DNA of 62,409 nt, counting the filler, from an uncultured Methanosarcinales archaeon (GTDB lineage: Archaea; Nanobdellota; Nanobdellia; Woesearchaeales; CAYSVS01): the NCBI GenBank assembly GCA_964434475.1. It is 3 parts of 3 records of this genome, joined end to end, with 100 filler letters (N's around TTAATTAATTAA, not from the genome) between each part and the next. Parts side by side here need not be neighbours in the genome. Positions count along the whole stretch, not along the records: positions 21,428 to 42,752 come from CAYSVS010000020.1; 2 more parts are not named here. The stretch is one strand, 5' to 3'. Position numbers: made by a program. Shown one piece after another: positions 33,001 through 39,000 of the stretch (its first letter is position 1; each line of letters begins with the position of its first letter).

Positions 33001-36000
33001 AGCAAGCTACAGGACATACGCCAAATTTTTTTGATACACAATAGGAATTTTTAATATTACAAACTGAAAACCCTTGAAAAGCAAAAGGTTATAATAACCA
33101 GTTTGTAATTAACACCAGAATCTTTTTTAAAATAAATAAAGGATAAAAACTTATAAATATAACGGATTTATTTACTGATTAGTGATTATTTCATACCGAT
33201 AGGTTTTTAAATAAAGAACAATTTGAAAATTGACTATGACCTGGAAGATAAAACAAATTCCAAAAAAACTACCTGAACTTAATAACCCAATCCTTATCGA
33301 AGGTCTGCCAGGCATAGGTAATGTAGGAAAGATTACGATAGATTTTATTAAAGAAGAATTAAAAGCCAAGAAAGTTTATGATTTCTTTTCATATACTTTT
33401 CCGCATTCTGTTTTTGTAAACGATAAGAATCTTGTTGAACTGCCAAGCATAGAAATGTTCTATGTCGCTTTTAACAACAAGAAGAAAAATGACCTGCTAC
33501 TGCTGGTAGGAGATGTACAGCCTATAGATGAAAAAAGTTCATATGAGTTTTGCGAAGAATTATTGAATATCTCAAAAAAATTAGATGTATCAGAAATAAT
33601 AACATTAGGAGGGGTAGGACTGCAATCTGTTCCTGAAAAACCTAAAGTATACTGTACTGCAAACAACAAAAGAATAATATCTAAATATATGAAAGGATGC
33701 AAGCTAAATAACAAACTATATGGAGTTGTAGGACCCATAGTAGGGGTTACAGGGTTAATGATAGGAATGTCTGAAAAAAAGGACATTTCTGCTATAGCGC
33801 TGCTTGCTGAAACATTCGGACATCCTATGTATTTAGGAATAAAGGGTTCAAGAGAAATCTTAAAGATACTGAATAAGAAACTAAATATAAAGCTGAATCT
33901 CAAAAAATTAGAGGAAGAAATCAAAACATTAGAAGCTGAAGCAGTCAGAAAAGTCGGCGATTTTTCCCAGATAAGCAAACAAAGCGCCTTGAAGAAGATC
34001 AAACAAAGGATGGGAAAGGACGTTAATTATATAGGTTAAATCTCAGGGTTATATTCTATCACTATTAAGAAAACATTTTAAAGATTATTATACAAGCATA
34101 TTCTATAGGAGAATTATAAAAATAAAAAGATACATCACTCCTTATGCTTAAGTTCAACATCATCTATAATATATCTTGCGGTATTTTGATTCTCTTCCTG
34201 TATATATGCATCTTTAACAATTATCTTTTTCATAAACAAAGGACAATCCAGCACAAGACTTTCAAATTCCCCTCCTTCTCCTGCTATGTTTAAGCCTATA
34301 TTATTGTTCAGTTCAGAAAGCTTGTCTATTTCTTTATTTGTTATTATTTTTCCAAGCCAAGTTTTATCAAGCCCATAAGCTGCAATAGAACTAAATATTA
34401 TTTCAAAATTATTCTTTATCACGCTTCGCATCTCTAATTCCTGATCTATGTGCCACAAAGGAGAAAAAACCTTTAGACCAAGCTGTTCGCATATCTTTTC
34501 TATCCTCTGTCTTTGGTAATCACTATACAAAGCGCCTGTAACTATACCATCTATGTTGTATTCTTGTTTTGCTTTTTCTATTGCTTTCCTTAGGTCATCA
34601 AGTTCTATCTCTTTCTTACCTTCTGTTTCTTCTATTATTAGAGGAAATTCCATCGCCTCAGCTTGTTTTTCAACAAGATTAATGTTAGGCGTATGGAACA
34701 TATAGCTGTCAGGATTTTTGCTCTTTATCGATATCAAACAAGTCAGTTCATAATTCATCTGGTTCATGGTATAAGCAGCATATGCACTGTCTTTGCCACT
34801 GCTCCACAATACGCCTAGTTTTTGGTTAACAGGACCATAGAATCGTTTCAGGTATTCTGATTTTTTTTCTTTTCCTGCTAATTTTTGTATAGCCTTATGC
34901 AATTTACTTCCGTACTGTGCAGCCACCTTTTTTCTGAAAGCATATCTTTTGTCTAAACCTAATTTTTCAGAAGCTTTGCGTAGAACAATCTTGCAGCCTT
35001 TATCATCTATCTTATACTTTGAAGGAATCTTAAGACTGTATTCTATGAGGTCAAGGTCAAGGAAAGGGCTTCTTAATTCTATATCGTTATACATAGTTAT
35101 TACATCATCCCTATAAGTATCCCTTTCATAAAGCTTCCTTAATCCAGCCAAACATTCCTTATTTACATTCGAACTTAGCTTGTGTCTTTCATATCCGCCA
35201 AATATTTCCTCAGATCCTAATCCTGAAAATATTACCCTAATCTTATCTTTTTTCGCTTGTTCACAAGCAGCAAACATAGTCAAACCAACTCCAGCCTTTA
35301 TAACATTGGATGATTCTATCAAAGGCAGCAAAACCTTGAGTTTTTCTTCTACCTCAGTCAGATTAAGTTTAGCTGCTTTCAACGCAAAACCATATCTTTT
35401 TGCTATCTCTTCTGCAAAATCCAGATCCTGGCTTTTAGAGAAATTTCCATGCTCTAAAGCGCTTGTATAGCAGATAAAATCCTTTCCTAATTGTTTTGCG
35501 ATGAATGCAATTATGGTCGAATCAATACCGCCTGAAAAAAGTATACCAAACTTTTGGTCAGGAATACGTTTCTTTATGGCTTGTTTAAGTTTGATTATAA
35601 TTTCATCGATAATATTTTCTTCATCTTCTGTAATCTCAGGAAATATGTCAAAAAAATTTCTTTTTATCTTTTCTAATTTATTTGTTTTTATGCAATATTT
35701 CAATAATAATCTTGGATTCAACTCTTCTATGTCATGATACTCTTTATTGCCCAATGTTTTCGCCAACACTTTTTTTTCAGATGCAAACAGAAATTTATCC
35801 TTATGGTAAATGAATAAAGGCTTTTCTCCTATTATATCTCTTGCCACGTAGATTTTACCATCTTTCCAATAAGCAAAAGCATAAACACCATCCAGCATAT
35901 CAAGAACTTCTTCAACAGGATTATTTTCAAGAAGATTAAACAGAAGCTCAGAATCATTTTTGCAGTCAAAGTCAAATTTTTTATCCAGTTCTTTCCAGTT

Positions 36001-39000
36001 GTATATTTCGCAATTTGCAACTAATTTACCTTTGCCAACAAAGGGCTGAGGTATTTTATCTCCTACAATAGAATGCAATGTATGGGCCAAGATATTATTG
36101 CCTTGAATATTGAGATTGTTCAGTTCTTTATCATATACTGCATCTTTTTCATTGCAGATACCAAAAAAATCTTTTCCTCTATTTCTAAGTAGATCTAACT
36201 GTTTCAAGACTATCTTATCTGCATAATTTATGTTGAATAATCCCGTAATTCCGCACATAAAAGTAATTTAAAGAGGAGTGTTTAAAAAAGTTTTGATGAA
36301 ATCTATAGTTTTCAAAATAGAATTATTTATAAATAGAACATATACAACATATATCTTATGCAAGGAGTAAATAATCTAATAGAAATAGTAAAAGGATGCG
36401 AAACAGCATATAAGATCGCAGGCATAAGAAAAGCAAAAGAATTGATTCTTGAAAAATCTCATATAATGACAAAGGCTTTTGAACAAATTCTTTATCTAAA
36501 TATAACTAAAGATAAGAATTGGATCCATCAGACCAAAGCGATGAAAAAACTAGGTTTTGAACAACCAGTACTGGCTGCAATGTATATGATATCACAGCTA
36601 GAAGAGATGGATTACAAAAAATTGGACATGGCCTTTAGAACTCCGGTATTTACAGAAGATAAGCTGGAAGTTATCCCCTCATACAACTTCGATAAACAAG
36701 TATTAAATTTAGACATAGGAATAGTATCAAAAGAAAAGATAATTCCTGCTTATAATGTAACATTGTCCAATATTGTTTCAAATTGGAAAAAGACAGAATC
36801 AATAATACCTGAAAAGGATATAATAAAACAATCTGAATCATATTCTATAGACTCTATAGCGATTGGTTTGATTTCAGGATATATGTGGACCGCAATGCAA
36901 AAGATGCAAGGTCCAGGAATAAAGAAAAAATTTCAGGACATAATAGAAAGAAAAGAGCCAGAGTATAATAAAGAAAAATCAAAATTAGAGAATATTAAAA
37001 ATAACGAAGGCAAAGATTCAGACAATTATAATAATCAAAAAATAATTTTGGAACAGATAAATGAAAAGCTGCTACCTGCAAAAAGGAAATTAAAATTTAT
37101 CAAAGGAACTAATGAAGCATTTGAAAAAGGATTATTTCCTATGTATTCTAAAATAATCTTAGAAAAATATAAAAAAATAGATGAAAATTATGAATTAGAA
37201 TACTCATTAAATCCTCTTAATATGAGAATCAGAGGGGATAACGGCACAGGAAAAACGTCAGTAATAATAAAACAAAATAATAAAGCAGTCATGCAGGCAA
37301 CTTTTAGTCTAACTTATGTCACAAAAGAAGATCTATTAAAAAATCTAAGACAATAGACTCTTTGCCATAACTTTCGGTTTCTTTATATCCATCAGTTCCA
37401 ATATGGTGGGTGCTAGGTTATATAATGCACCATCCTTTAGCTTATGTTTGCTGTCCTTTTCCACCAAAGTGCAGTACACGTCATTAAGAGTATGAGACGT
37501 CTGGTATTTGCCACACATCTCTTCACAATTGCCGTGGTCTGCAGTAACAAGCACTTTAACATCTTTCTGCAAACATTTTTCTATTACTTTCTTCATGCAT
37601 TTATCAACAGTTTCTACTGCTTTTACTACTGCTTTCATAGAGCCGGTATGTCCAACCATGTCTCCATTTGCATAATTTAAAACTGTCAGATCATATTTAC
37701 CTATTGTCGGCAATAACTTCTTTGTTATCTTATATGCACTCATTTCAGGTTTTTTGTCATAAGTAGAAACTTTTGGACTAGGTATCACTATCCTGTCTTC
37801 ATTTTCAAAAGGATTTTCCCTTCCGCCATTGAAGAAAAAGGTTACATGCGCGTATTTTTCAGTCTCTGCTATCCTTAGCTGTTTTTTTCCTTTTTTTGAC
37901 ATTATCTCTCCCAAGGTATTTTTAGGCTCTTGCGACTTAAAGACGACTTTTGCATCAATATCCTTATCATACTGTGTAAGGCATATAAAATCCACAGGAA
38001 TATTTTCGCGCTTGAAGTTCTTGAACTTATCTTCAGTAAATGCTCTCGACAATTCTCTTGCCCTGTCGCTTCTGAAATTAAAGAACACAAAGCAATCATT
38101 TTTATGAACTAGATCCTTTTCAGTGATTATCAATGGCCTGATAAATTCATCTGTTTCATTGTTCTTGTATGCCCAGTCTATAGCTTTGACAGGATCATCA
38201 AATTTTCTGCCTTTTTCATTGACTATACAGTCATAAGCCTTATGCTCCCTATACCATCTTTTATCTCTATCCATAGCATAATATCTACCTATTATTGAAG
38301 CTATCGAACCAATTTTATTCTTCTTCATAAACTGCAGCAATTCTTTGATATATTTTTTTCCACTTTTTGTCGGTGTATCTCTTCCATCAGTAAATACATG
38401 GACATAAACATCCCTAAGCTTATGCTTTTTTGCAAGCTTCAGCAAAGCGAAAAGATGATCTATATGGCTGTGTACACCAGCATCTGACAACAAACCCATA
38501 AGATGCAGTGCTTTGCCTTTTTTCTTCACTTTCTTGAAAGCTTTATTCAATACTTTGTTTCTGAAGAAACTTTTATCCTTTATCGCCTTGTTTATGCGCA
38601 ACAAATCCTGGGGAATCATCCTGCCTGCACCCAGGTGCGTATGTCCTACTTCTGAATTACCCATATAGCCTTTCGGTAGTCCAACACTTTTTTCTGCTGC
38701 ATGCACTACACAAGTAGGATATTTTTTGTGTATATTGTCATAATAAGGTGTTTTTCCTTGTTTAATTGCATTATTTTTCTTGCTCTTGCGTATTCCCCAA
38801 CCATCAAGAATCATCAACAAAACTTTTTTATCTGCCATATTTTACCCTCTTACCAATCTTTTCTTCGATTCTCAATAATTGATTATATTTACTTGTTCTA
38901 TCGCTTCTGCAAGGCGCACCTAACTTTATCTGACCGCAGCCAAGAGCAACGGCCAAATCAGCGATAAATGGATCCTCTGTCTCTCCGCTCCTATGACTTA

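What a model noticed while it worked through the whole genome (the two positions that open the first line are those of the whole stretch)
34135..36258. Diphthine-ammonia ligase Dph6 fused to an AsnB-type glutamine amidotransferase
One 707-aa ORF joins a class-II glutamine amidotransferase and asparagine-synthase domain to an archaeal Dph6. The fusion is full-length in 14 of 30 other sampled genomes of the order. It suggests glutamine-fed amidation of diphthine.
Evidence so far: - Pfam GATase_7, Asn_synthase and Diphthami_syn_2. - TIGR03679 Dph6_archaeal 273 bits against cut-off 197; asn_synth_AEB 252.9 against 267.1. - Relatives: call 125.
(Added by a program. Inside this text positions count along the whole contig: they may not be those of the stretch shown here. 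"Call 12" and the like, gene names such as g00115 and contig names such as C1 are that model's own, and its searches are not shown. The text may have been shortened before it was handed on; [...] marks where a part breaks off. The agent that wrote the report below was given it as the finding of a first reader that could run no searches.)

Follow-up and report, generated by a model that had tools for sequence, protein, structure and literature searches.

The report
Known AsnB-like–Dph6 fusion, odd AsnB half
This archaeal gene joins the enzyme that finishes the diphthamide modification of elongation factor 2 to a glutamine-splitting, asparagine-synthetase-like module, a fusion described in 2012, and the asparagine-synthetase-like half lacks a residue that real asparagine synthetases need.

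Summary
It is the only Dph6 gene and the only Asn_synthase gene found in a 97%-complete genome. That genome also has EF-2 with the target His, Dph5 and a split Dph2.

The fusion is not new. De Crécy-Lagard et al. 2012 described it and proposed glutamine-fed ammonia, and public databases hold many copies.

The AsnB-like half belongs to a separate archaeal family.
- It has Leu where human ASNS needs Glu-364 (E364A and E364Q are inactive).
- It has Leu where AsnB has the Gln-binding Arg-49.
- It sits beside canonical-type AsnB paralogues in 41 of 121 genomes of the order.
- It occurs in methanogens that have GatB and, where checked, an Asp-tRNA(Asn) ligase, but no AsnRS over cut-off.
- Relatives lose or degrade the glutaminase domain yet keep AsnB-like plus Dph6.

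Verdict: a new member of a known fusion. The Dph6 role is solid. The "AsnB" label is doubtful. Glutamine feeding of Dph6 is possible but unproven.

The parts
34135..36258 (-). Whole ORF, 707 aa plus stop. Flanking genes are convergent (PAC2 family, 33230-34039 +) and divergent (332-aa protein with no Pfam match, 36358-37356 +), so it has no co-directional neighbouring gene.
35674..36258 (-). Class-II (Ntn) glutamine amidotransferase domain, residues 1-195. Cys2, Asn82, Glu84 and Asp102 are kept. E. coli Arg49 is Leu61 and Gly75 is Cys83.
34843..35661 (-). AsnB-like PP-loop domain, residues 200-472. It has the PP-loop SGGIDS (242-247), SGLGSEE (345-351) with Leu347 at the position of human Glu-364 / E. 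coli Glu348, then D380, R383, ELR 394-396, K444 and the family motif AAQYGS (446-451).
34816..34854 (-). Short junction between the domains, residues 469-481. Y469, L470, F473, Y474, N478 and L481 are 90% or more conserved in 120 homologues, which argues for a fixed rather than a floppy link.
34138..34821 (-). Dph6 (diphthine--ammonia ligase) domain, residues 480-707. It has the PP-loop SSGKDS (486-491) and EGGEFE (661-666).
42032..42715 (+). C-terminal piece of a split Dph2 (227 aa), the first enzyme of the same pathway. It lies on the same contig about 6 kb away. It is not part of the fusion gene.

Best explanation
The ORF is a real, conserved three-domain enzyme.

Shown or nearly shown: the C-terminal domain (480-707) is the genome's only diphthine--ammonia ligase. 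By homology it adenylates the carboxylate of diphthine on EF-2 and replaces AMP with ammonia to give diphthamide.

Shown from sequence: the N-terminal 472 residues have the AsnB two-domain fold, but they belong to a separate archaeal family (signature SGLGSEE ... AAQYGS). This family lacks the glutamate that asparagine synthetases need and lacks the arginine that holds glutamine's carboxylate.

Inferred: this module is not the cell's housekeeping asparagine synthetase. It is a glutamine-using, ATP-dependent amidoligase with its own acceptor, still unknown, that has travelled with Dph6 as one unit through DPANN archaea and Methanosarcinales.

Inferred: in this protein the glutaminase is active and coupled to the AsnB-like site. 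It is possible, but not shown, that its ammonia also reaches the Dph6 site.
For: Dph6 role:
- TIGR03679 scores 273.1 against cut-off 197.3.
- In the phmmer search of the PDB it scores 186.8 and 181 bits against PH1257 and PF0828. In the AF2 model it has TM 0.97 and rmsd 1.3 A to 2d13_A.
- SxGKDS and EGGExE are invariant or nearly so in 120 homologues.
- It is the only PF01902 match in the genome.
- Dph5 scores 334.9 bits, aEF-2 scores 1066.2 bits and carries the HRG histidine motif, and Dph2 is present in two pieces.

Separate family:
- Leu347 aligns with E. coli Glu348 and human Glu-364. Leu61 aligns with Arg49.
- Among the 120 best homologues, position 347 is Leu in 116, Ile in 2 and Ser in 2. 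Position 61 is Leu in 120 of 120.
- Among 142 of the best 150 representatives at 50% clustering, an acidic residue stands at position 347 in 1 of the 138 that have a residue there.
- E364A and E364Q human ASNS are inactive (Zhu et al. 2019, PMC6748925, passages read).
- 29 canonical-type AsnB paralogues from the same order have Arg at position 61 in 29 of 29, and Asp or Glu at position 347 in 24 of 29.
- The AsnB-like family is one clade against 8 of these paralogues, with SH-aLRT 100.

Not a housekeeping asparagine synthetase:
- 41 of 121 genomes of the order carry a separate locus over the TIGR01536 cut-off. 17 of those also carry the full fusion.
- In 5 Methanosarcinales genomes with the fusion, no AsnRS passes cut-off and GatB passes in 5 of 5. 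In 4 of the 5 the fusion is the only strong Asn_synthase hit.
- In 2 of these genomes the best asnS-like ORF is Asp-tRNA(Asn) ligase, at 636 and 650 bits.

The module keeps its own chemistry:
- PP-loop, SGLGSEE and AAQYGS are kept in forms without a glutaminase. These are 10 fused AS-Dph6 forms and 8 AS-only forms.
- They are also kept in fusions whose glutaminase has lost Asn82 and Asp102 (6 of 6) and Cys2 (3 of 6).

Glutaminase coupling:
- Cys2, Asn82 and Asp102 are conserved.
- The interface motif ELR (human Glu-414 / Arg-416) is kept in 13 of 13 rows that have a glutaminase domain, but in only 1 of 18 rows that lack one.
Against: - G000 itself has AsnRS (461 bits), no GatB over cut-off and no other AsnB-type gene. 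It therefore needs free asparagine, and this module could be its source.
- The residues that hold the amino-acid end of aspartate in ASNS are kept: D367 as E350, E368 as E351, D400 as D380, R403 as R383 and K466 as K444. An aspartate-like substrate is not excluded.
- 5 of 29 canonical-type paralogues also lack an acidic residue at position 347.
- The canonical-type paralogues also hit exopolysaccharide amidotransferase models. They may not make asparagine either.
- No acceptor can be named for the AsnB-like domain.
- The Rosetta-stone signal may go back to a single old fusion spread by gene transfer.
- Where AS-only and Dph6 are separate genes in the DPANN order, they are adjacent in only 2 of about 25 genomes. 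One of the two is the unpublished G112.
Confidence: 0.5

Rival explanations
1. Glutamine-dependent diphthamide synthetase. The glutaminase releases NH3, which travels through the AsnB-like domain to the Dph6 site. The AsnB-like domain serves mainly as tunnel, scaffold or ATP-gated regulator. This can hold together with the best explanation if the ammonia feeds both sites.
For: - The glutaminase nucleophile and oxyanion residues are conserved.
- No glutamine synthetase (PF00120) and no ammonium transporter (PF00909) were found in a 97%-complete genome.
- This is the only Dph6 in the genome.
- The junction is short and conserved.
- The full-length AF2 model has pLDDT 93.3 and pTM 0.89. By my estimate a pTM that high cannot be reached if the 230-residue Dph6 domain were unplaced.
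- The same protein without the glutaminase domain gives pTM 0.62 at pLDDT 89.7. This hints that Dph6 packs against the glutaminase side.
- A hydrophobic Leu at the end of the AsnB tunnel would suit a tunnel extension (inference).
Against: - Within the order, 10 of 120 relatives keep AS-Dph6 with no glutaminase domain. In 8 of these no second match to any part of the query was found.
- Other fusions carry a glutaminase without Cys2, Asn82 or Asp102.
- If the AsnB-like domain were only a conduit it should decay once the glutaminase is gone. Instead its PP-loop and family motifs stay.
- By homology the tunnel ends at the AsnB-like site, not at Dph6.
- The Gln-carboxylate ligand Arg49 is missing.
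- Many small genomes of the class have a match to the Dph6 part only, and yeast Dph6 works with ammonium alone (Su et al. 2012, recalled, not read).
- The pTM contrast is confounded by alignment depth (120 against 39 rows).
Confidence: 0.3
2. Plain bifunctional protein. The N-terminal 472 residues are a working glutamine-dependent asparagine synthetase that supplies AsnRS. Dph6 is merely attached, with no functional coupling.
For: - G000 has AsnRS and no GatCAB, and no other AsnB or AsnA was found.
- The AsnB fold is present, with TM 0.80 and rmsd 3.1 A to 1ct9_A.
- TIGR01536 is only 14 bits under cut-off.
- The aspartate-end ligands and the catalytic Lys are kept.
- AS-only and Dph6 are mostly unlinked when they are separate genes.
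Against: - Glu-364/Glu348 is replaced throughout the family, and substitution of that residue inactivates human ASNS.
- The module is kept in methanogens that have GatB over cut-off and no AsnRS over cut-off; in the two checked, the best asnS-like ORF is an Asp-tRNA(Asn) ligase. These organisms should have no need for free Asn in translation (general point from PMC2330236, one passage read).
- It coexists with canonical-type paralogues in 41 of 121 genomes.
Confidence: 0.2
3. The AsnB-like domain acts on EF-2 itself. It would catalyse a second ATP-dependent step on the diphthamide side chain or a precursor, or help to recognise EF-2, so the whole protein would be one EF-2-modifying machine.
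For: - The domain has been retained with Dph6 across DPANN, Methanosarcinales, ANME and Halobacteria-labelled MAGs, either fused or as adjacent genes. In the Methanosarcinales sample, 11 of 81 genomes have the fusion and 5 have adjacent pairs.
- The catalytic motifs are kept without a glutaminase.
- The pocket keeps the ligands for an amino-acid-like group but loses one negative charge. This would suit the amino-carboxy-propyl or trimethylammonio group of the EF-2 side chain (speculation).
Against: - No further modification of archaeal EF-2 that would need such a step is known to me (recalled).
- Dph6 alone is found in many genomes of the class.
- AS-only genes show no conserved neighbourhood with dph genes or EF-2.
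- Adjacency after a fission is expected by descent and is not independent evidence.
Confidence: 0.15
4. Artefact: an assembly chimera or a read-through of two genes.
For: The source is a fragmented assembly of 148 contigs.
Against: The same single frame occurs in 47-50 of 120 genomes of the order. It also occurs in closed or single-contig genomes, in a cultured Methanolobus, and in all of the 120 best database homologues.
Confidence: 0.01

Closest known systems
AsnB-DUF71 (Dph6) fusion of Methanohalophilus mahii, Methanosalsum zhilinae and 'Ca. Nanosalinarum' (de Crécy-Lagard et al. 2012, Biol Direct 7:32)
   Same: It has the same three domains in the same order. Relatives from Methanolobus, Methanomethylovorans and Methanohalophilus are 46-52% identical over the matched length, full length in Methanolobus and Methanomethylovorans and from residue 115 in Methanohalophilus RSK. 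The published hypothesis is also the same: glutamine hydrolysis supplies NH3.
   Different: The architecture does not differ. This is a Woesearchaeota/Nanoarchaeota-type member. In the methanogen copies the Glu348 position is Ser or Ala, not Leu, and in several of them the glutaminase is degenerate.
Stand-alone archaeal Dph6 (PH1257 / PF0828; TIGR03679)
   Same: Residues 480-707 match over the whole length. The motifs and the fold are the same.
   Different: Here the domain is tied by a short conserved junction to a 472-residue N-terminal module.
Asparagine synthetase B / human ASNS (1CT9, 6GQ3; TIGR01536)
   Same: It shares the two-domain fold, the N-terminal Cys nucleophile, the PP-loop SGGxDS, and the equivalents of Asp-400, Arg-403, Lys-466 and Glu-414.
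   Different: It is below the model cut-off. Glu-364/Glu348 is Leu, Arg-48/49 is Leu and Gly75 is Cys. The C-terminal tail is replaced by Dph6, and a family motif AAQYGS is present.
Yeast Dph6 (DUF71 domain plus two RidA/YjgF-like domains)
   Same: A Dph6 core is fused to a domain family linked to ammonia release. The 2012 paper presents it as a parallel case.
   Different: [quoted passage not shown]
Glutamine-dependent PP-loop amidoligases with ammonia tunnels (GMP synthetase, Gln-dependent NAD synthetase)
   Same: The logic is the same: a glutaminase is joined to an ATP pyrophosphatase that adenylates a carboxyl or carbonyl group (general knowledge; weak hits).
   Different: Those enzymes have one PP-loop site per glutaminase. 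This protein has two different PP-loop domains.

Membership tests
Dph6, diphthine--ammonia ligase (TIGR03679 / PF01902) | Family model score over the curated cut-off | tested here: met
   273.1 bits against 197.3. Pfam 222.2 bits against 23.2.
Dph6, diphthine--ammonia ligase (TIGR03679 / PF01902) | PP-loop (SGGKDS-type) and the EGGE(F/Y)E motif | tested here: met
   SSGKDS at 486-491 and EGGEFE at 661-666. They are invariant or nearly so in 120 homologues. The motif names are recalled.
Dph6, diphthine--ammonia ligase (TIGR03679 / PF01902) | Fold of PH1257 / PF0828 | tested here: met
   TM 0.97 and rmsd 1.3 A to 2d13_A. TM 0.95 to 3rk1_B.
Dph6, diphthine--ammonia ligase (TIGR03679 / PF01902) | Substrate pathway present in the genome (EF-2 with the target His, Dph2, Dph5) | tested here: met
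Dph6, diphthine--ammonia ligase (TIGR03679 / PF01902) | ATP-dependent amidation of diphthine | not testable with these tools
   Needs an enzyme assay.
Asparagine synthetase, glutamine-hydrolysing (AsnB; TIGR01536) | Family model score over the curated cut-off | tested here: not met
   252.9 bits against 267.1. PRK09431 scores 194.3 against 499.
Asparagine synthetase, glutamine-hydrolysing (AsnB; TIGR01536) | Synthetase-site glutamate (E. coli Glu348 / human Glu-364), required for activity | tested here: not met
   It is Leu347 here. It is Leu in 116 of 120 homologues. An acidic residue occurs in 1 of 138 representatives. The requirement comes from Zhu et al. 2019.
Asparagine synthetase, glutamine-hydrolysing (AsnB; TIGR01536) | PP-loop SGGxDS, the AMP-binding Ser-Gly, the catalytic Lys (Lys449 / Lys-466) and the Asp-end ligands (Asp-400, Arg-403) | tested here: met
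   SGGIDS at 242-247, S345-G346, K444, D380 and R383.
Asparagine synthetase, glutamine-hydrolysing (AsnB; TIGR01536) | Two-domain AsnB fold | tested here: met
   TM 0.80 and rmsd 3.1 A to 1ct9_A.
Asparagine synthetase, glutamine-hydrolysing (AsnB; TIGR01536) | Makes asparagine | not testable with these tools
   The context points both ways. G000 has AsnRS and no GatCAB. Methanogen carriers have GatB over cut-off and no AsnRS over cut-off, and in the two checked the best asnS-like ORF is an Asp-tRNA(Asn) ligase.
Class-II (Ntn) glutamine amidotransferase domain | N-terminal Cys nucleophile, the Asn/Gly oxyanion pair, and the Asp that binds the amino group | tested here: met
   Cys2, Asn82 and Asp102 are conserved in 119-120 of 120 homologues. 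The Gly position is Cys83.
Class-II (Ntn) glutamine amidotransferase domain | Arg that binds the glutamine alpha-carboxylate (E. coli Arg49 / human Arg-48) | tested here: not met
   Leu61 in 120 of 120 homologues, followed by His62 in 118. Canonical-type paralogues have Arg in 29 of 29.
AsnB-DUF71 fusion of de Crécy-Lagard et al. 2012 | GAT-II, then an Asn_synthase PP-loop domain, then DUF71 in one polypeptide | tested here: met

The most novel reading that the evidence does not exclude
The 'AsnB' half is not an asparagine synthetase. It represents an uncharacterised archaeal amidoligase family (Leu, Gln or Ser in place of the catalytic Glu; motif AAQYGS) whose real job is tied to Dph6. Either it turns Dph6 into a glutamine-dependent diphthamide synthetase holoenzyme through an extended ammonia path, or it carries out a second, unknown ATP-dependent step on EF-2.
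Probability: 0.3. Interest if true: 0.7.

Novelty: new member of a known kind. Interest (0 to 1): 0.4.

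Why it matters
Diphthamide is a universal archaeal and eukaryotic modification of EF-2. Where the last step gets its nitrogen has only been shown with free ammonium. A glutamine-fed route has stood as a genomic prediction since 2012 and, in the paper searches run here, has not been tested.

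This work does not settle that question, but it sharpens it in three ways:
- The partner domain is not an ordinary AsnB.
- The glutaminase is dispensable in many lineages.
- The same module exists in a cultured methanogen (Methanolobus bombayensis DSM 7082), where the protein can be studied.

There is also a practical point about annotation. These proteins are labelled 'asparagine synthase (glutamine-hydrolysing)' by one source and 'diphthine--ammonia ligase' by another. Metabolic reconstructions of DPANN archaea that count them as asparagine synthesis may be wrong.

Tried and rejected
- Complex prediction, residues 1-472 against 478-707, both cut from alignment A1. It was accepted and collected. 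The verdict was 'no answer' (score 0.01, mark 0.32, controls not folded). It is not used as evidence either way.
I could not measure distances between the three active sites or trace a tunnel. I used only pTM, 0.89 full length against 0.62 without the glutaminase domain. That contrast is confounded by alignment depth (120 against 39 rows).
- Gene neighbourhoods of 8 AS-only genes showed no conserved context. The neighbours were PCNA, a Drg-type GTPase, Sua5, prefoldin, AspRS, GlyRS and NadE.
- The window's own neighbourhood gave nothing relevant apart from the Dph2 piece 6 kb away.
- The tree of the AsnB-like domain had 60 rows: 52 family members and 8 of the 29 canonical-type paralogues as outgroup. 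It used the quick LG+G4 method, and 27 of 57 inner branches were unresolved. It supports one clade for the family (support 100). It places most glutaminase-less forms in one nested cluster (18 rows, support 85) with fused and split forms interleaved. It is too weak to count fusion or fission events.
- I considered an assembly artefact and rejected it.
- I considered another genetic code. It is not needed, because the frame is open under table 11.
- Paper searches for a tested glutamine-dependent Dph6, or for this fusion in DPANN archaea, returned nothing relevant beyond the 2012 paper.
- A search for 'Glu-348' with 'asparagine synthetase' found no paper. Meyer et al. 2010 on E. coli Glu348 is recalled, not read.

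Full report
OBSERVATION

An ATG-to-stop ORF of 707 aa lies at window 34135..36258 on the minus strand. These are window coordinates. The offset in the finding's note must not be added, because adding it leads to a DnaK/DnaJ region. The window is three contigs of one assembly (C19, C20, C21) joined by N spacers. The gene is on C20.

Pfam finds GATase_7 (73.0 bits, residues 69-166), Asn_synthase (137.8 bits) and Diphthami_syn_2 (222.2 bits, residues 480-693).

The flanking genes are convergent and divergent, so the ORF has no co-directional neighbouring gene.

IS IT REAL?

Yes. In a sample of 120 other genomes of the order, each from a different family code, one frame covers all three domains in 47. 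The count is 50 if G015, G097 and G091 are added, whose glutaminase part shows only. This is my reading of the table. One of the 120, G112, is unpublished.

The 120 best of 1769 database homologues all have the same three domains and are 674-746 aa long. NCBI names them 'diphthine--ammonia ligase', and JGI names them either that or 'asparagine synthase (glutamine-hydrolysing)'. The ESM Atlas holds clusters of 61, 69, 155 and 55 such proteins.

A scan of species genomes found 569 relatives. Among them are full-length copies in Methanolobus bombayensis DSM 7082 (52% identical) and in further Methanolobus and Methanomethylovorans assemblies. A Methanohalophilus RSK copy aligns from residue 115, and Methanococcoides FTZ1 carries the module as two overlapping ORFs. 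Copies also occur in ANME-3, Methanophagales and Syntrophoarchaeum MAGs, in Halobacteria-labelled MAGs, and in one Altiarchaeota-labelled MAG. The fusion also occurs in other orders of the window's class.

ALREADY IN PRINT

De Crécy-Lagard et al. 2012 (PMC3541065; passages read) described this architecture in Methanohalophilus mahii, Methanosalsum zhilinae and 'Ca. Nanosalinarum'. [quoted passage not shown] Their reviewer L. Aravind asked which PP-loop domain uses the ammonia and what the Asn-synthetase-like domain catalyses.

My searches found no later paper that tests this.

THE DPH6 HALF

Residues 480-707 score 186.8 and 181 bits against PH1257 and PF0828. In the AF2 model they superpose on 2d13_A with TM 0.97 and rmsd 1.3 A. 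The PP-loop (SSGKDS, 486-491) and EGGEFE (661-666) are invariant or nearly so in 120 homologues.

The genome is 1.50 Mb in 148 contigs and 96.95% complete. It has no other PF01902 match. It encodes Dph5 (334.9 bits), aEF-2 (1066.2 bits) with the histidine motif, and Dph2 in two pieces. The assignment as the cell's diphthine--ammonia ligase is sound.

THE 'AsnB' HALF IS A DIFFERENT FAMILY

HMMER alignments to E. coli AsnB (1ct9) and human ASNS (6gq3) are unambiguous around the key motifs. The mapping, human / E. coli residue to this protein, is:

| Reference residue | This protein |
|---|---|
| Cys1 | Cys2 |
| Arg-48 / Arg49 | Leu61 |
| Asn74 | Asn82 |
| Gly75 | Cys83 |
| Glu76 | Glu84 |
| Asp-96 / Asp98 | Asp102 |
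| SGGLDS | SGGIDS (242-247) |
| Ser-362, Gly-363 | Ser345, Gly346 |
| Glu-364 / Glu348 | Leu347 |
| Asp-367 | Glu350 |
| Glu-368 | Glu351 |
| Asp-400 | Asp380 |
| Arg-403 | Arg383 |
| Glu-414, Arg-416 | Glu394, Arg396 |
| Lys-466 / Lys449 | Lys444 |

Zhu et al. [quoted passage not shown] They report that E364A, E364Q and D367A ASNS are inactive, and they call Glu-364 'required for catalytic activity'.

Both departures are fixed in the family:
- In the 120 closest homologues, position 61 is Leu in 120. Position 347 is Leu in 116, Ile in 2 and Ser in 2.
- In 142 of the best 150 representatives of a 1.84-billion-protein library, position 347 is L 90, Q 12, I 8, V 7, T 5, others 16, and acidic in 1 of the 138 that have a residue there. 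My id filter dropped the 8 representatives that already had ids. The motif AAQYGS is almost universal in this set.
- By contrast, 29 canonical-type AsnB paralogues from the same order have Arg at position 61 in 29 of 29, and Asp or Glu at position 347 in 24 of 29. The rest are H 2, N 1, A 1 and Q 1.
- The AsnB-like family is one clade against 8 of these paralogues, with support 100.

DOES IT MAKE ASPARAGINE?

For:
- G000 has AsnRS (461 bits against 342.6).
- Its only GatB-like match is a 613-aa frame far below cut-off, which I take to be GatE.
- It has no other Asn_synthase gene. The cell therefore needs free asparagine.
- The ligands for the amino-acid end of aspartate are kept.

Against:
- The family lacks the required glutamate (see above).
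- 41 of 121 genomes of the order carry a separate locus over the TIGR01536 cut-off (277.7-537.7 bits), and 17 of these also have the full fusion. These paralogues also hit exopolysaccharide amidotransferase models, so their own role is open.
- In five Methanosarcinales genomes that carry the module, no AsnRS passes cut-off (best 221-287 bits) and GatB passes in 5 of 5 (559-579 bits). In 4 of the 5 the module is the only strong Asn_synthase hit.
- In two of those genomes the best asnS-like ORF is the non-discriminating Asp-tRNA(Asn) ligase, at 636 and 650 bits against cut-off 368.4. Such organisms make Asn on the tRNA. The indirect path can be the sole route to Asn (Sheppard et al. 2008, PMC2330236, one passage read).

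I conclude, at about 0.7, that the module is not a housekeeping asparagine synthetase.

WHICH DOMAINS BELONG TOGETHER?

Four architectures occur in the order:

| Class | Architecture | Count or examples |
|---|---|---|
| (a) | GAT-AS-Dph6 | 47-50 genomes |
| (b) | AS-Dph6 without glutaminase, 483-536 aa | 10 genomes. No glutaminase ORF within the 6-kb loci. In 8 of the 10, no second match to any part of the query in the genome. |
| (c) | AS-only of about 300 aa plus a separate Dph6 of about 230 aa | Many genomes |
| (d) | GAT-AS plus a separate Dph6 | G008, G028, G109 |

All classes share the PP-loop, SG[L/I/T/S]G..EE and AAQYGS.

Outside DPANN, six fusions have lost Asn82 and Asp102 in 6 of 6 and Cys2 in 3 of 6, yet their AsnB-like and Dph6 motifs are intact. 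These six carry the labels Methanosarcinales, Halobacteria, Methanomicrobiales and Methanophagales. The Methanohalophilus and Methanococcoides copies also have degenerate glutaminases.

In a sample of 81 Methanosarcinales genomes, the close form of the module is fused to Dph6 in 11 and lies next to Dph6 in 5. The other genomes have a stand-alone Dph6 (41-48% identical) and, unlinked, a more distant GAT-AS of about 455 aa. That more distant form has Gln at position 347 and AAQYSS.

The stable pairing is therefore AsnB-like + Dph6, and the glutaminase is expendable.

Where the glutaminase is present it is under selection together with the AsnB-like domain. The interface motif ELR (human Glu-414 / Arg-416) is kept in 13 of 13 rows that have a glutaminase domain and in 1 of 18 rows that lack one.

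Results that cut the other way:
- When AS-only and Dph6 are separate genes in the DPANN order, they are adjacent in only 2 of about 25 genomes (G119 and the unpublished G112). Adjacency after a fission is expected by descent in any case.
- Many small genomes of the class match the Dph6 part only, so Dph6 does not need the module.
- The Dph6 domain of the fused type is closer across phyla (61-63% to Methanococcoides and Argoarchaeum) than to the stand-alone Dph6 of Methanosarcinales. This suggests one old fusion spread by gene transfer rather than repeated fusions. The inference rests on identities only.

STRUCTURE

AF2 with 120 homologues gives pLDDT 93.3 and pTM 0.89, with no segment under 50. 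The first 472 residues superpose on AsnB as one two-domain body (1ct9_A, TM 0.80, rmsd 3.1 A). No solved chain covers all three domains.

By my estimate a pTM of 0.89 cannot be reached if a 230-residue domain were unplaced, since the ceiling would be about 0.67. The junction residues 469-481 are conserved. A fixed packing of Dph6 on the module is therefore likely.

Residues 200-707 alone, modelled with a 39-row alignment, give pLDDT 89.7 but pTM 0.62. This is a hint that the placement leans on the glutaminase domain, but it is confounded by the shallower alignment.

HOW IT MOST LIKELY WORKS

- Shown by homology: Dph6 adenylates diphthine on EF-2 and amidates it.
- Inferred: the glutaminase hydrolyses glutamine or a close analogue. 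The missing Arg leaves the donor slightly open. It passes NH3 to the AsnB-like site, which adenylates an acceptor that is probably not aspartate.
- Open: whether the same NH3 reaches Dph6. The genome lacks glutamine synthetase and an ammonium transporter, which fits a glutamine-based nitrogen economy but proves nothing.

VERDICT

This is a new member of a fusion known since 2012. The Dph6 call is solid, the 'AsnB' label is doubtful, and the functional coupling is unproven. Interest is moderate. The old open question of what the second PP-loop domain does is now sharper, and it is testable in a cultured methanogen.

Noticed in passing
window 42032-42715 (+) and G000:C10, about 19095-19340 (+): Dph2 is split into a 227-aa C-terminal ORF (Pfam profile positions 91-283) and an N-terminal ORF of about 80 aa on another contig (profile positions 1-70). 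Narrowe et al. 2018 (PMC6143161, passage read) already report split Dph1/2 in several DPANN archaea.
   Followed up: partly
window 21328-21427 and 42753-42852: N spacers. The window is three contigs (C19, C20, C21) laid end to end, so features on different contigs are not neighbours.
   Followed up: yes
L078-L107 (30 genomes of the order): Canonical-type AsnB paralogues of 580-669 aa score 440-538 bits on TIGR01536 and also hit the XrtA/PEP-CTERM amidotransferase model. They may be sugar or polymer amidotransferases rather than asparagine synthetases. G000 has none.
   Followed up: partly
L176:2749-4257 and L176:4103-4951 (Methanococcoides sp. FTZ1); L171 likewise: The AsnB-like part (502 aa) and Dph6 (282 aa) are two ORFs that overlap by about 155 bases. 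This could be a frameshift, a sequencing error or a true split gene.
   Followed up: no
L071 (G119:C5), 1019-3557: An ammonia-type NAD synthetase gene (229 aa) lies divergently next to the AS-only gene and the Dph6 gene, which overlap by 4 bases. Three PP-loop amidoligase genes sit side by side.
   Followed up: no
L201-L204, L209 (Methanosarcinales genomes without the fusion): A GAT-AS protein of about 455 aa has Gln at the Glu348 position and the motif AAQYSS, in an order where the five genomes checked have GatB over cut-off and no AsnRS over cut-off. This is a widespread archaeal AsnB-like family whose function seems unknown.
   Followed up: partly
record titles (e.g. L113, L116, L123, L129): Many loci about 50-55% identical to the window's protein carry the title 'uncultured Methanosarcinales archaeon'. 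Several sit on contigs that the genome search places in the window's own order. These taxon labels may be wrong.
   Followed up: no
window 29446-31292 (-): A histidine kinase (HisKA + HATPase_c, 486 aa) and a response regulator (129 aa) form a two-component pair in this small archaeal genome.
   Followed up: no
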